The position numbers are program-made. Below are positions 12,001-15,000 of a stretch of DNA of 64,000 bases, in pieces. Within the stretch, counting starts at the first letter, position 1. Every line of letters begins with the position of its first letter. Source of the stretch: Escherichia coli (lineage in GTDB: Bacteria; Pseudomonadota; Gammaproteobacteria; Enterobacterales; Enterobacteriaceae); assembly GCF_009931435.1 (NCBI RefSeq), contig NZ_CP043414.1; one strand, given 5' to 3'.

Positions 12001-15000
12001 ACCTGCCAGCGCAATCTGTGAGCACAGCTCCTGAATCCCGGTACCGGAAGCGCCAATGACGCCAATGTTGCCTTCCGGCATCACGTTAGCAAAAGCCAGC
12101 GGCGTGGCGGCAATCATCGATGTACCGCAGTCCGGCCCCATCACCAGCAAACCTTTTTCCCGCGCGCGGGTTTTAAGTTGGATTTCATCTTCCAGCGTGA
12201 CGTTATCGGAGAACATCATCACGTTGAGGTTGCGATCCAGCGCCTGGTTCGCCAGTTCCGCCGCATACTCGCCAGCCACTGAAATCAGCGCCAGATTGGC
12301 ATTGGGTAATTTCTGACTGGCACTGTCCCAGCGACGTACCTGCGTCAACGCCTGGCTGCTGCCCGTTCCCTGCGCCAGTTGCTTTAGCGCCTCTTCAAGC
12401 TGCTGCATAATCGCCTGCGCGATCCCCGCATCCGCAGCTTCGCTACGAATTGCCACGCAAATATCGTTCGGCGTGGCGTGATTAAAATCGTCATGCCAGA
12501 AACCTGTAGTCTCTAGTAACGCTTTATTGGCGGGCGTACCCATCATTACGGAAACATCATCAACATTTTCTGATTCGCTGAGTTTTCGTGAAATAATCAT
12601 TAAACTGACTGAATCCTGAAAACACCCTTTTTTAATAAAGGCGTGGATCATAACAACTCCTTAAAAATTGCACCCATGGCAATTGCACGAGCAGTGTTAA
12701 TGTGGCGATTACGGTATCGATGACAACGAGTAAATAAGGTGATGAATATCACACAGACATTATTAACAAAAGAATTCAAATAACCGCCAGACTATTACAC
12801 GTTATTTTTTAATAAGCATAGTTGTTTTAAAAACCAGGTTAAAAGCGAGCGGATTATCAAATAAATTCTAACTATATTTTTTTGCCTGTCTGGATCACAT
12901 AATCCAGATATTTTCCCTGTATGTTAATTGCAGTCATGCTTCACACCATCGTTAAAAAGGAAGACAGATGAAAATCAGTCGGGAAACACTCCACCAGTTA
13001 ATTGAGAATAAACTCTGTCAGGCTGGGTTAAAACGTGAGCACGCTGCAACCGTGGCTGAAGTATTGGTTTACGCCGATGCCAGAGGGATCCACTCTCATG
13101 GCGCGGTGCGCGTTGAATACTACGCAGAGCGCATATCAAAAGGCGGCACCAACCGCGAACCAGAGTTTCGTCTTGAAGAAACCGGACCGTGCTCGGCAAT
13201 TTTACATGCCGACAATGCCGCCGGACAGGTCGCGGCAAAAATGGGTATGGAACATGCCATTAAAACAGCACAACAACATGGCGTGGCGGTGGTTGGCATC
13301 AGCCGAATGGGTCACAGCGGCGCAATCTCTTATTTTGTGCAGCAGGCAGCCCGCGCCGGATTGATTGGCATTTCGATGTGCCAGTCCGATCCAATGGTGG
13401 TGCCGTTTGGCGGCGCGGAAATTTACTACGGCACTAACCCACTGGCCTTTGCCGCGCCGGGAGAAGGCGACGAGATTCTTACTTTTGATATGGCGACTAC
13501 CGTACAGGCATGGGGAAAAGTGCTCGACGCCCGCTCGCGCAATATGTCTATCCCGGATACCTGGGCGGTCGATAAAAACGGTGCACCAACAACCGATCCC
13601 TTCGCGGTTAACGCCCTGCTCCCGGCTGCCGGACCGAAAGGTTATGGCCTGATGATGATGATTGACGTCCTCTCAGGCGTCTTACTCGGCTTACCGTTCG
13701 GGCGTCAGGTCAGTTCGATGTATGACGATTTACACGCCGGACGTAATTTGGGGCAATTACATGTAGTTATTAATCCGAACTTTTTCTCCTCCAGCGAATT
13801 ATTCCGTCAACATCTTAGCCAGACCATGCGCGAATTAAATGCCATTACCCCCGCGCCCGGTTTTAACCAGGTTTATTATCCCGGACAGGATCAGGATATT
13901 AAACAACACAAAACCGCCGTCGAAGGCATCGAAATTGTTGATGATATTTACCAGTATTTAATTTCCGACGCGCTTTATAACACGTCATACGAAACGAAAA
14001 ATCCCTTTGCGCAATAATTGTTGAGACAGGACTTTCTTATGATTACACATTTCCGTCAAGCTATAGAAGAAACGCTGCCCTGGCTTTCCTCTTTTGGCGC
14101 TGACCCAGCGGGTGGGATGACCCGTTTACTTTATTCGCCGGAGTGGCTGGAAACCCAGCAGCAATTTAAAAAAAGAATGGCAGCAAGTGGGCTGGAAACA
14201 CGTTTCGATGAAGTGGGGAATTTATACGGCCGCCTGAACGGCAGCGAATACCCTCAGGAAGTGATTCTGAGCGGTTCGCATATTGATACCGTGGTTAACG
14301 GCGGTAACCTCGACGGACAATTCGGCGCACTGGCGGCGTGGCTGGCGATTGACTGGCTGAAAACGCAATACGGCGCGCCGCTGCGAACGGTCGAAGTGGT
14401 GGCAATGGCGGAAGAAGAAGGCAGCCGCTTCCCGTATGTCTTCTGGGGCAGTAAAAATATCTTTGGGCTGGCGAATCCTGACGACGTGCGGAATATCTGT
14501 GATGCCAAAGGAAATAGTTTTGTCGATGCAATGAAGGCTTGCGGATTTACTCTGCCGAACGCCCCACTAACTCCGCGCCTGGACATCAAAGCCTTTGTCG
14601 AACTGCATATCGAACAGGGTTGTGTGCTGGAAAGTAATGGTCAGTCAATTGGCGTGGTGAATGCGATTGTCGGGCAACGTCGCTACACGGTGACGCTGAA
14701 CGGCGAATCAAACCATGCAGGCACCACGCCGATGGGTTATCGTCGTGATACGGTTTACGCTTTCAGTCGCATTTGCCATCAGTCAGTTGAGAAAGCGAAA
14801 AAGATGGGCGATCCGCTGGTGCTGACCTTTGGCAAGGTGGAGCCGCGCCCGAATACGGTGAATGTAGTGCCGGGTAAAACCACGTTCACTATTGATTGTC
14901 GTCATACCGACACTGCCGTGTTGCGCGATTTTACCCAACAGTTAGAAAACGACATGCGGGCGATTTGCGATGAAATGGACATTGGTATTGATATCGATTT

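What the first reader, a model, noticed from the sequence alone, without database searches (positions are those of the whole stretch)
12652..12967. Direct repeats and a palindrome in the fdrA/allD divergent control region
The region contains a tandem AATTGCAC...AATTGCAC direct repeat (about 12667-12690) and a 20-bp palindrome TCTGGAT-N6-ATCCAGA (12889-12908) roughly 60 bp upstream of allD. These are candidate binding sites for the LysR-type activator AllS, or for another regulator of the divergent fdrA operon.
Basis: inference. Interest (0 to 1): 0.25.

Follow-up and report, generated by a model that had tools for sequence, protein, structure and literature searches.

The report
Repeats in the allD–allF control region
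Both sequence features are really there, in the well-studied E. coli switch region for allantoin breakdown genes, but comparison with other species shows that only half of the palindrome (GATCACA) is an ancient promoter signal, and that the direct repeat sits in a transcribed leader with no detectable role.

Summary
The window matches the Escherichia coli allD / fdrA (now allF) divergent intergenic region: 316 bp, the same length as in K-12. Both features exist. AATTGCAC occurs at 12666-12673 and 12681-12688, 15 bp apart and not tandem. TCTGGAT-N6-ATCCAGA lies at 12889-12908. Neither exceeds chance on its own.

Published work places AllS binding at 12795-12854, ArcA at 12734-12793 and a CRP site at 12745. 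None of these covers either feature.

Comparison across 26-31 Enterobacterales and one Photobacterium shows:
- The palindrome is Escherichia-specific. Its right arm has no invariant base.
- The left arm and loop contain GATCACA, the only 7-mer shared by all 26 intergenic regions. It lies exactly 20 bp upstream of a conserved -10 (TAnnnT) in 30 of 31 taxa, at about -39 to -33 of the allD promoter.
- Two related LysR-type boxes (12821-43 and 12853-75), 32 bp apart, lie just upstream. The first coincides with the published AllS motif.
- The direct repeat lies at about +17 to +39 of the allF leader, downstream of a class II CRP promoter. What is conserved there is an inverted repeat (AATTGC-N7-GCAATT), and only in the Escherichia/Citrobacter/Klebsiella group.

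This is an ordinary, largely known control region, with a modest refinement of its architecture.

The parts
12666..12673 (+). Direct-repeat copy 1, AATTGCAC. It is also the left arm (AATTGC) of the leader inverted repeat.
12681..12688 (+). Direct-repeat copy 2, AATTGCAC.
   Evidence: The exact pair is present only in the window/Escherichia and two Citrobacter genomes.
12666..12684 (-). Inverted repeat AATTGC-N7-GCAATT in the inferred allF 5' leader (about +21 to +39), ending 4 nt before the Shine-Dalgarno sequence. This is the form conserved in the Escherichia/Citrobacter/Klebsiella/Raoultella/Superficieibacter group.
   Evidence: 90% of cells paired; compensatory change in two rows at one pair only; 8 of 26 taxa. 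The leader RNA folds no better than shuffles (z = +0.54).
12657..12662 (-). allF (fdrA) Shine-Dalgarno sequence AAGGAG.
   Evidence: Read from the sequence; conserved as GGAG.
12711..12716 (-). Inferred allF -10 hexamer TACCGT (TAnnnT). The inferred start site is about 12703-12704.
   Evidence: A TAnnnT hexamer lies exactly 22 nt after the CRP core in 20 of 21 taxa and at almost no other offset, while leader length varies from 41 to 112 nt. The start site itself is inferred, not measured.
12735..12756 (.). CRP site (tGTGTGATATTCATCACCtt in allF sense), centre 12745.5 = K-12 coordinate 546586. This is the class II position (-41.5) for allF.
   Evidence: Published in-vitro CRP site, Kd 9.8 nM (PMC12871828). 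Best CRP-matrix score in the whole 64-kb window, 19.5 bits. The GTGA-N6-TCAC core is invariant in 18 of 18 Enterobacteriaceae and present in 23 of 26 taxa.
12734..12793 (.). Published ArcA-P EMSA fragment (allFp -142/-83).
   Evidence: PMC12535856. Coordinates converted through the indel-free alignment to K-12.
12795..12854 (.). [quoted passage not shown]
   Evidence: PMC12535856.
12821..12843 (.). LysR-type box 1, centred on the published AllS motif position.
   Evidence: Over 20 taxa, this is the 23-mer most similar to box 2, at an offset of exactly 32 bp, in direct (z about 2.9) and inverted (z about 4) sense.
12853..12875 (.). LysR-type box 2, ATTATCAAATAAATTCTAACTAT. It is the most conserved block of the spacer and contains ATA-N9-TAT (a T-N11-A motif). 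It is centred about -68 from the inferred allD start.
   Evidence: Mean pairwise identity 0.87. Its distance to GATCACA is fixed, with no indels in 31 sequences. It resembles the motif of the AllS paralogue PunR/YdhB, TsttwTCAAwAwwwTTGaaGGCA. It is unique in the window.
12889..12908 (.). The reported palindrome TCTGGAT-CACATA-ATCCAGA.
   Evidence: Fixed in E. coli but absent as a palindrome outside Escherichia.
12893..12899 (+). GATCACA, the invariant core (left arm plus loop). It lies at about -39 to -33 of the allD promoter and equals the consensus CRP half-site.
   Evidence: It is the only 7-mer present in 26 of 26 intergenic regions. It is followed after exactly 20 nt by TAnnnT in 30 of 31 taxa. 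Scored as a full CRP site it reaches only 1.7 bits.
12920..12925 (+). Inferred allD -10 hexamer TATGTT. The inferred start site is about 12932.
   Evidence: The -10-to-ATG distance varies from 38 to 173 nt, so the module behaves as a promoter and is not tied to the start codon. The start site is inferred.
12957..12963 (+). allD Shine-Dalgarno sequence AAGGAAG.
   Evidence: Invariant AAAGGAAG block.

Best explanation
The two features lie in the promoter-proximal flanks of a back-to-back pair of activator-dependent promoters. Neither is a symmetric operator.

Palindrome (shown). It is a genus-specific accident of symmetry built on an ancient asymmetric element. (TCTG)GATCACA sits exactly 20 bp upstream of the allD -10 hexamer, at about -39 to -33, where a class II activator contacts RNA polymerase. 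The right arm ATCCAGA arose only in Escherichia.

Neighbouring elements (inferred). Two related LysR-type boxes, 32 bp apart, lie just upstream at 12821-43 and 12853-75. The first is at the published AllS motif position. They most likely bind an AllS tetramer.

Identity of GATCACA (inferred). It is most likely a single consensus CRP half-site (GATCACAWWWT) used together with AllS. The alternative is a promoter-proximal AllS activation site.

Direct repeat (location inferred from conserved spacing). It lies in the transcribed allF leader, about +17 to +39. It is downstream of a class II CRP-dependent promoter (CRP site centre 12745.5, -10 at 12716-12711) and directly upstream of the ribosome-binding site. 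The conserved form is the overlapping inverted repeat AATTGC-N7-GCAATT, which is restricted to one clade. At most it is a small leader hairpin or operator of minor or unknown effect. The AATTGCAC direct repeat itself is probably incidental.
For: Identity of the region.

Published sites that do not cover either feature: AllS fragment 12795-12854 and ArcA fragment 12734-12793 (PMC12535856); CRP site at 546586 = 12745, Kd 9.8 nM (PMC12871828).

Palindrome:
- GATCACA is invariant in 18 of 18 Enterobacteriaceae. The right arm has 0 invariant positions, and the majority bases differ from E. coli.
- Only 48% of arm cells pair.
- GATCACA is the only 7-mer present in 26 of 26 spacers.
- GATCACA-N20-TAnnnT holds in 30 of 31 taxa, including Proteus and Photobacterium, and in none at the neighbouring offsets (16-19 and 21-24 nt).

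LysR-type boxes:
- Box 2 has mean identity 0.87 and a fixed distance to GATCACA.
- Its best self-similarity is exactly 32 bp upstream, at the published AllS motif centre.
- It resembles the PunR motif.

allF promoter and direct repeat:
- CRP core-N22-TAnnnT holds in 20 of 21 taxa.
- The CRP site is the top matrix score in the window.
- The repeat therefore lies downstream of the inferred start site.
- The inverted repeat is kept in 8 of 26 taxa and the exact direct repeat in 3.
- The segment is deleted in Buttiauxella.

Constraint within E. coli: both flanks are 100% identical in about 95% of some 5,300 genomes, while the central 94 bp is at least 99% identical in only 2.
Against: - No transcription start site for allD or allF could be read here. 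Rintoul et al. 2002 and Cusa et al. 1999 are not held. All positions relative to +1 are inferred from conserved hexamer spacing.
- The CRP reading of GATCACA has no distal half-site (0 of 5 matches to TGTGA, with a conserved CC that mismatches). It scores 1.7 bits against at least 10.4 bits for the published strong sites. It is not in the Kd < 10 nM list.
- The 20-nt spacer gives -40.5 rather than the canonical -41.5.
- Within E. coli the whole palindrome is fixed, so an Escherichia-specific function of the symmetric form cannot be excluded.
- The published EMSA used crude lysates and tested neither feature. AllS binding to them has therefore never been directly excluded.
Confidence: 0.7

Rival explanations
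1. GATCACA and the left arm form the promoter-proximal activation site (ABS) of an AllS tetramer, whose recognition site is box 2 at about -68. This would be the classical LysR arrangement, with no CRP involved at allD.
For: - allD transcription is strictly AllS-dependent (Rintoul 2002, as cited in PMC12535856).
- The geometry fits a LysR promoter: recognition site near -65, activation site overlapping -35. Box 2 is centred about -68 and GATCACA about -36.
- The spacing between the two is fixed and indel-free in 31 sequences.
- In E. coli, ATCA(A/C)ATAA occurs in both elements.
Against: - Activation sites are normally less conserved than recognition sites (general knowledge of the family). Here GATCACA is invariant across an order while box 2 varies.
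- Box 2's best relative lies 32 bp upstream, at box 1, not downstream at GATCACA.
- GATCACA shows no consistent similarity to the box half-sites outside E. coli.
Confidence: 0.3
2. The full palindrome TCTGGAT-N6-ATCCAGA is a genuine symmetric operator for a dimeric regulator (AllS or another) that evolved in Escherichia.
For: - 7-bp perfect arms.
- The 55-bp segment holding the palindrome is 100% identical in about 5,015 of 5,318 matching E. coli genomes, and the three sampled variants fall outside the palindrome.
- The ATAATCC part is also a perfect inverted copy of GGATTAT in box 2, 41 bp away (pair I7).
Against: - A palindrome of this size occurs in 32% of shuffles.
- The right arm is not conserved in any other genus that carries the same operons and the same promoter module.
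- E. whittamii already breaks the outer pair.
- The neighbouring 55 bp are equally invariant in E. coli, so species-level identity does not single out the arms.
- There are no further copies in the 64-kb window that holds the rest of the all regulon.
Confidence: 0.1
3. The AATTGCAC repeats, or the inverted repeat, are the operator of an unidentified regulator bound downstream of the allF start as a roadblock. Alternatively, they form a leader RNA hairpin that tunes allF mRNA stability or translation.
For: - The block CAATTGC(A/C)ATGGGTGCAATT is conserved in Escherichia, Citrobacter, UBA3516, Raoultella, Klebsiella and Superficieibacter.
- 90% of inverted-repeat cells pair.
- The 66-bp segment is 100% identical in about 5,050 E. 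coli genomes.
- It ends 4 nt before the Shine-Dalgarno sequence.
Against: - There is no solid compensatory variation; the only double changes are two poorly aligned rows at one pair.
- The leader fold is no better than shuffles (z = +0.54).
- It is absent or deleted in Buttiauxella, Atlantibacter, RIT691, Serratia, Erwinia, Pantoea and Providencia, which keep the same promoter.
- It does not occlude the Shine-Dalgarno sequence.
- No Rfam family matches, and there is no second copy in the window.
- It does not fit the ArcA box (TGTTA repeats 11 bp apart), the NtrC site or the sigma-54 consensus on inspection.
Confidence: 0.2
4. The palindrome marks the -10 region of the allF (fdrA) promoter, as in the published in-silico annotation: sigma-70 promoter '271 bp upstream of fdrA', with minus-strand -35 TTAACA at 12927-12922 and -10 GATTAT at 12904-12899.
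For: - The promoter scan finds exactly these hexamers (9 of 12 matches, 17-bp spacer).
- A published prediction places a sigma-70 promoter 271 bp upstream of fdrA (PMC9843812), and that annotation is used in Fig. 3 of PMC12535856.
- The minus-strand hexamer keeps A2 and T6 in 17 of 18 taxa.
Against: - It would place the AllS, ArcA and CRP sites 60-150 bp downstream of the start site, which is implausible for activators.
- The -35 is not conserved (ATAAAA in Klebsiella).
- The invariant bases at 12919-12925 fit a plus-strand -10 better.
- The CRP core-N22-TAnnnT module conserved in 20 of 21 taxa gives a far better allF promoter.
- The scan finds as many promoter-like sites in shuffles (2 found, 1.5 expected).
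Confidence: 0.07
5. The palindrome is an intrinsic terminator or another RNA hairpin.
For: If transcribed, it folds to -10.9 kcal/mol (z = -3.7) and is followed by AUAUUUUCCC. The terminator scan flags it.
Against: - It lies between divergent promoters, upstream of the inferred allD start. No gene reads into it on the plus strand.
- The U tract is weak.
- The stem is not conserved.
Confidence: 0.02

Closest known systems
Class II CRP-dependent promoters (CRP at -41.5, for example galP1) and co-dependent promoters where CRP uses a poor or half site next to a second activator (for example araBAD with AraC, melAB with MelR; from general knowledge)
   Same: - allF side: a full CRP site whose core lies a fixed 22 nt before TAnnnT, giving -41.5. 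It binds CRP in vitro with Kd 9.8 nM.
- allD side: GATCACAWWWT equals the consensus CRP half including its inner and outer flanks. It lies 20 nt before the -10 and next to a specific activator's boxes.
   Different: - On the allD side the distal half-site is entirely absent, and the full-site score is 1.7 bits.
- The spacing is 1 bp shorter than canonical.
- No CRP binding or crp dependence of allD has been shown.
LysR-type activator promoters (recognition site with T-N11-A near -65 plus an activation site near -35); specifically AllS at allD, and its paralogue PunR/YdhB at punC
   Same: - AllS is required for both allD and allF.
- Two related AT-rich pseudo-dyad boxes lie 32 bp apart. Box 2 contains ATA-N9-TAT and TCAA-N5-TT, like the PunR motif.
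- The first box coincides with the published AllS motif.
   Different: - The reported palindrome and direct repeat are not these boxes.
- The palindrome has no symmetric T-N11-A, and its second half is not conserved.
- Box 2, the better conserved box, lies almost wholly outside the published 60-bp EMSA fragment.
ArcA-P boxes (direct TGTTA repeats 11 bp apart), the published anaerobic activator of allF
   Different: The repeat unit (AATTGCAC), its 15-bp spacing and its location in the leader do not fit. The published ArcA fragment is 12734-12793.

Membership tests
LysR-type (AllS) binding site | Interrupted dyad carrying T-N11-A | tested here: not met
   The palindrome's symmetric T/A pairs are separated by N6, N14 and N18, none by N11 (read). 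The direct repeat is not a dyad. A T-N11-A motif (ATA-N9-TAT) is found instead in box 2, at 12861-12875.
LysR-type (AllS) binding site | Experimentally bound by AllS | not testable with these tools
   The published AllS EMSA used fragment 12795-12854 only. Neither feature was assayed. The original AllS study (Rintoul et al. 2002) is not held.
LysR-type (AllS) binding site | Both half-sites conserved in species that keep the regulated promoter | tested here: not met
   The right arm has 0 invariant positions, and 48% of cells pair. The exact direct repeat is found in 3 of 26 taxa.
LysR-type (AllS) binding site | Position: recognition site near -65, or activation site overlapping -35 | tested here: inconclusive
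   GATCACA lies at about -39 to -33 of the inferred allD promoter, which would fit an activation site. The start site is inferred, not measured. The direct repeat lies downstream of the inferred allF start, which does not fit.
CRP site (TGTGA-N6-TCACA) | Two half-sites matching TGTGA/TCACA, scored with a matrix built from published sites | tested here: not met
   At the GATCACA site the proximal half matches 5 of 5 and the distal half 0 of 5. The score is 1.7 bits, against 10.4-23.1 bits for the 39 training sites. By contrast, the site at 12736-12755 scores 19.5 bits, rank 1 of 63,981.
CRP site (TGTGA-N6-TCACA) | Class II geometry (centre near -41.5, about 21 nt between TCACA and the -10) | tested here: met
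   20 nt between GATCACA and TAnnnT in 30 of 31 taxa. 21 nt after TCACN on the allF side in 20 of 21 taxa.
CRP site (TGTGA-N6-TCACA) | Binds CRP | not testable with these tools
   Only the 12745 site is in the published Kd < 10 nM table. The full table of 1,217 bound regions (Table S2) is not held. The authors state that the weakest sites rely mainly on a single half-site.
ArcA-P box | Direct repeats of TGTTA-like pentamers with 11-bp centre-to-centre spacing | tested here: not met
   The unit is AATTGCAC and the spacing is 15 bp. The published ArcA fragment and predicted sites lie at 12734-12814.
Intrinsic terminator | GC-rich hairpin plus U tract at the end of a transcription unit | tested here: not met
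   The hairpin is predicted and flagged by the scan. However, it has only 3 G-C pairs, a weak U tract, no upstream gene on that strand, and a stem that is not conserved.
Structured leader RNA / known RNA family | Fold more stable than shuffles, covariation, or an Rfam match | tested here: not met
   Leader fold z = +0.54. Compensatory change appears in only two rows at one pair of the inverted repeat, where the alignment is doubtful. The only Rfam match is a spurious eukaryotic scaRNA at 20.7 bits against a gathering score of 65.

The most novel reading that the evidence does not exclude
GATCACA is a lone consensus CRP half-site held invariant at the class II position of the allD promoter across Enterobacterales and at least one Photobacterium. 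On this reading allD needs both CRP and AllS. An AllS tetramer would bridge two boxes, at about -100 and -68, and recruit or stabilise CRP on a site that has no second half. The whole spacer would then be a mirror-image design: allF -10, CRP, ArcA, AllS, AllS, half-CRP, allD -10. This would also tie anaerobic allantoin nitrogen use to carbon status. In addition, it would relocate the allF promoter away from its currently annotated position.
Probability: 0.35. Interest if true: 0.45.

Novelty: new member of a known kind. Interest (0 to 1): 0.25.

Why it matters
The allD/allF spacer controls the oxamate branch of anaerobic allantoin use. That pathway was completed genetically only in 2022-2025, and it is linked to Klebsiella virulence loci.

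The present result is mainly a clean-up. It shows that the two eye-catching symmetries are not the AllS sites. It also shows that the published in-silico allF promoter is poorly placed.

It gives experimenters a sharper map: a class II CRP promoter for allF, two AllS-type boxes, and an invariant GATCACA at -36 of allD. Each of these predictions can be tested with a few point mutations in existing lacZ fusions. None of it changes general principles of bacterial gene regulation.

Tried and rejected
- Sigma-54 promoter or NtrC site at the direct repeat. TGCACC and TGGCA/TTGCA are present, but the spacing and orientation do not fit either consensus on inspection. Rejected.
- ArcA box at the direct repeat. 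Unit and spacing are wrong. Rejected.
- Full CRP site at GATCACA. The matrix score is 1.7 bits. Rejected as an independent site; kept only as a half-site hypothesis.
- FNR site at GATCACA. The left half matches TTGAT at no more than 3 of 5 positions in any genus (read). Rejected.
- MerR-type long-spacer promoter. The spacer between ATCACA and TATGTT is 20 bp, but the dyad is centred near -33, not mid-spacer, and is not conserved. Rejected.
- IHF, PdhR, CytR, PurR and DeoR look-alikes. These were considered from memory only. The spacing or half-sites do not fit, and they were not pursued.
- Leader RNA structure, Rfam and Tandem Repeats Finder. Nothing found.
- Further copies of the three motifs elsewhere in the 64-kb window, which holds allS, allA, allR and gcl. 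None beyond chance.
- allS within 2.5 kb of allD in other taxa. None.
- Literature that could not be obtained: Rintoul et al. 2002, Cusa et al. 1999, and Huynh and Stewart 2023 are not held. Supplements of both key papers are not held. Full-text searches for the site sequences found nothing.
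Full report
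**What the region is.** Window 12652-12967 is the 316-bp spacer between two divergent genes. One is fdrA, recently renamed allF (minus strand, ATG at 12651). The other is allD (plus strand, ATG at 12968). The 1-kb region matches 5,402 of 5,426 complete E. coli genomes at 95-99% identity, with these annotations. It aligns to K-12 MG1655 without any indel. K-12 coordinates and the published 'distance from the allF ATG' therefore convert directly: window position = 12651 + distance = 559331 - K-12 coordinate.

**The observation.** AATTGCAC occurs at 12666-12673 and again at 12681-12688. The copies are 15 bp apart start to start, so they are separated by 7 bp rather than tandem, and Tandem Repeats Finder reports nothing. 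TCTGGAT-CACATA-ATCCAGA is exact at 12889-12908, ending 59 bp before the allD ATG.

Neither feature is remarkable statistically. In 2000 dinucleotide-preserving shuffles of this AT-rich spacer, a 7-bp-arm palindrome appears in 32% (6.7% if the arms must hold at least 3 G/C). An 8-mer direct repeat within 28 bp appears in 15%.

**What is already published.** Kim and Kim 2025 (PMC12535856) showed that allF'-'lacZ needs AllS and ArcA. They obtained gel shifts with an AllS lysate on fragment -203/-144 (window 12795-12854; predicted motif centre -181 = 12832). They obtained shifts with an ArcA-P lysate on fragment -142/-83 (12734-12793). The shifts used crude lysates, with EBNA protein as the only negative control.

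A 2026 Footprint-seq preprint (PMC12871828) lists a novel in-vitro CRP site between allD and fdrA. It is centred at 546586 = window 12745, with Kd 9.8 nM.

None of these sites covers the direct repeat (-15 to -37 from the allF ATG) or the palindrome (-238 to -257). I could not obtain an experimental start site. The promoter used in those papers is a computational one '271 bp upstream of fdrA'. It corresponds to the minus-strand hexamers at 12927-12922 and 12904-12899 found by the scan, and it overlaps the palindrome.

**Phylogenetic footprint.** One scan with AllD recovered the same divergent allD/allF arrangement in many Enterobacterales. The spacer is 295-316 bp in Enterobacteriaceae and about 360 bp in Serratia, Erwinia, Pantoea and Providencia. 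The alignment of 18 Enterobacteriaceae, and alignments anchored on conserved cores, give a clear picture.

*(a) allF promoter.* The core GTGA-N6-TCAC at 12739-12752 is invariant. It is the best CRP-matrix score in the whole 64-kb window (19.5 bits). A TAnnnT hexamer (TACCGT, 12716-12711) follows exactly 22 nt later in 20 of 21 taxa and at almost no other offset. Leader length, by contrast, varies from 41 to 112 nt. This is the geometry of a class II CRP promoter (-41.5), with a start near 12703-12704.

*(b) The most conserved block.* This is 12853-12875, ATTATCAAATAAATTCTAACTAT, with mean identity 0.87.

*(c) GATCACA.* GATCACA (12893-12899) is invariant. It is the only 7-mer shared by all 26 spacers.

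*(d) allD promoter.* A TAnnnT hexamer (TATGTT, 12920-12925) follows GATCACA after exactly 20 nt in 30 of 31 taxa, including Proteus and a Photobacterium. None has it at the neighbouring offsets of 16-19 or 21-24 nt. The distance from this hexamer to the ATG varies from 38 to 173 nt. GATCACA-N20-TAnnnT is therefore a promoter module. GATCACA lies at about -39 to -33 of an allD start near 12932.

**The palindrome.** Only its left arm and loop are conserved. The right arm ATCCAGA has no invariant position in 18 genomes, and the majority bases differ from E. coli. Only 48% of arm cells form pairs. The full palindrome is found only in Escherichia, and E. whittamii already breaks the outer pair.

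Within E. coli the 55-bp segment holding it is 100% identical in about 5,015 of 5,318 matching genomes. That holds for the whole segment, not for the arms in particular. The symmetric reading is thus not supported beyond one genus. What is functional is an asymmetric element, (TCTG)GATCACA.

**Where AllS most likely binds.** The 23-mer at 12853-75 (box 2) keeps a fixed, indel-free distance to GATCACA in 31 sequences. Over 20 taxa, the 23-mer most similar to it lies exactly 32 bp upstream. This holds in direct (z about 2.9) and inverted (z about 4) sense. That second box, 12821-43, is centred at 12832, the published AllS motif centre.

Box 2 contains ATA-N9-TAT (a T-N11-A motif) and TCAA-N5-TT. 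It resembles the motif reported for PunR/YdhB, TsttwTCAAwAwwwTTGaaGGCA. PunR is the E. coli paralogue of AllS, with 31% identity and a related recognition helix. Two related pseudo-dyads three helical turns apart are what a LysR-type tetramer uses. This is inference, but it reconciles the published gel shift with the conservation pattern. It also places AllS next to the palindrome rather than on it.

**What GATCACA is.** Together with its flanks (TCTGGATCACAT, then A/T-rich), it matches the consensus CRP half-site at 11 of 12 positions. It also sits where the promoter-proximal half of a class II CRP site would be. Its invariance across an order fits a factor with fixed specificity better than it fits a LysR activation site, since those usually drift.

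Against this, the distal half matches TGTGA at 0 of 5 positions. The full-site score is 1.7 bits, against at least 10.4 bits for the published strong sites. The site is not in the Kd < 10 nM list. The Footprint-seq authors note that their weakest sites rely mainly on a single half-site, but the table that would settle the matter is not held.

I rate 'CRP half-site used together with AllS' at about 0.35-0.4 and 'AllS activation site' at about 0.3. Other readings take the rest.

**The direct repeat.** With the allF promoter placed as above, the two AATTGCAC copies lie at about +17 to +39 of the leader. They end 4 nt before the Shine-Dalgarno sequence AAGGAG. The exact direct repeat exists only in Escherichia and two Citrobacter genomes.

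The conserved form is the overlapping inverted repeat AATTGC-N7-GCAATT (AATTGCA-N5-TGCAATT in Klebsiella). It is present in 8 of 26 taxa. The only compensatory change is in two poorly aligned rows at one pair. The segment is deleted in Buttiauxella and absent in Serratia-type leaders.

The leader RNA folds no better than shuffles (z = +0.54). No Rfam family matches. No second copy occurs in the window. Its sequence does not fit the ArcA, NtrC or sigma-54 consensus. The most economical reading is a clade-specific leader sequence of small or unknown effect. An operator or stabilising hairpin is not excluded (about 0.2).

**Verdict.** AllS is best placed elsewhere, the palindrome is half of something old plus a genus-specific addition, and the direct repeat is in a leader.

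The region is an already characterised control region, and the elements belong to known kinds. The modest new content has three parts:
- the conserved GATCACA-N20-(-10) module at allD;
- a class II CRP promoter for allF that conflicts with the annotated in-silico promoter;
- a second, better conserved AllS-type box outside the published EMSA fragment.

Noticed in passing
window 11273 (fdrA/allF coding region, minus strand): fdrA carries a 1-bp deletion in a C run (GACCCGC in K-12, GACCGC here). This shifts the frame after about codon 460. The ORF ends at 477 aa instead of 555. It is either a real pseudogene in this strain or a sequencing error.
   Followed up: partly
window 12735-12756: This is the strongest CRP-matrix hit in the whole 64-kb window. 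It equals a CRP site published only in 2026 as 'novel' (Kd 9.8 nM). Its fixed 22-nt distance to a TAnnnT hexamer in 20 of 21 taxa implies a class II CRP promoter for allF. The 2025 regulation paper does not mention this, and all of its assays used glycerol.
   Followed up: yes
window 12757-12850 versus 12645-12710 and 12876-12930: Divergence is very uneven inside one spacer. The central 94 bp, which holds the published AllS and ArcA regions, is at least 99% identical to this window in only 2 of about 5,330 E. coli genomes; most are 90-95%. The two flanks are 100% identical in about 95% of genomes.
   Followed up: partly
L086 (E. coli GCEC19) 748-1500; also hit H11: An IS1 element is inserted in the allD-fdrA spacer. 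In GCEC19 the junction falls inside the palindrome, replacing GATCACA up to the loop, so the allD promoter module is cut from its upstream boxes.
   Followed up: partly
window 12677 to 12648, minus strand: A 9-codon upstream ORF (MGAIFKELL) starts at the ATG inside the CCATGG of the repeat. It ends at a TGA overlapping the allF ATG (ATGA). It stays open and in frame in all taxa that carry the inverted repeat. It has no Shine-Dalgarno sequence and no amino-acid conservation, so it is probably not expressed.
   Followed up: partly
window 12899-12927, minus strand: The published or EcoCyc-derived sigma-70 promoter for fdrA ('271 bp upstream') coincides with TTAACA-N17-GATTAT, which overlaps the palindrome. 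It would put the AllS, ArcA and CRP sites downstream of the start site, which conflicts with their roles as activators.
   Followed up: yes
window 12659-12688, minus strand: In allF sense the repeat reads as two 15-bp units, GTGCAATTGCCATGG and GTGCAATTTTTAAGG (11 of 15 identical). The second unit carries the Shine-Dalgarno sequence. This is possibly an old 15-bp duplication. The similarity is lower in Klebsiella (8 of 15).
   Followed up: no
window 39006-39025: This is the second-best CRP-matrix hit in the window (AATGCGCTTTACATCACACA, 16.2 bits). Its gene context was not examined.
   Followed up: no
window 12893-12896: The invariant GATCACA contains a Dam site (GATC), which is therefore conserved in all 31 taxa at about -39 to -36 of the allD promoter. 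Whether methylation matters was not examined.
   Followed up: no
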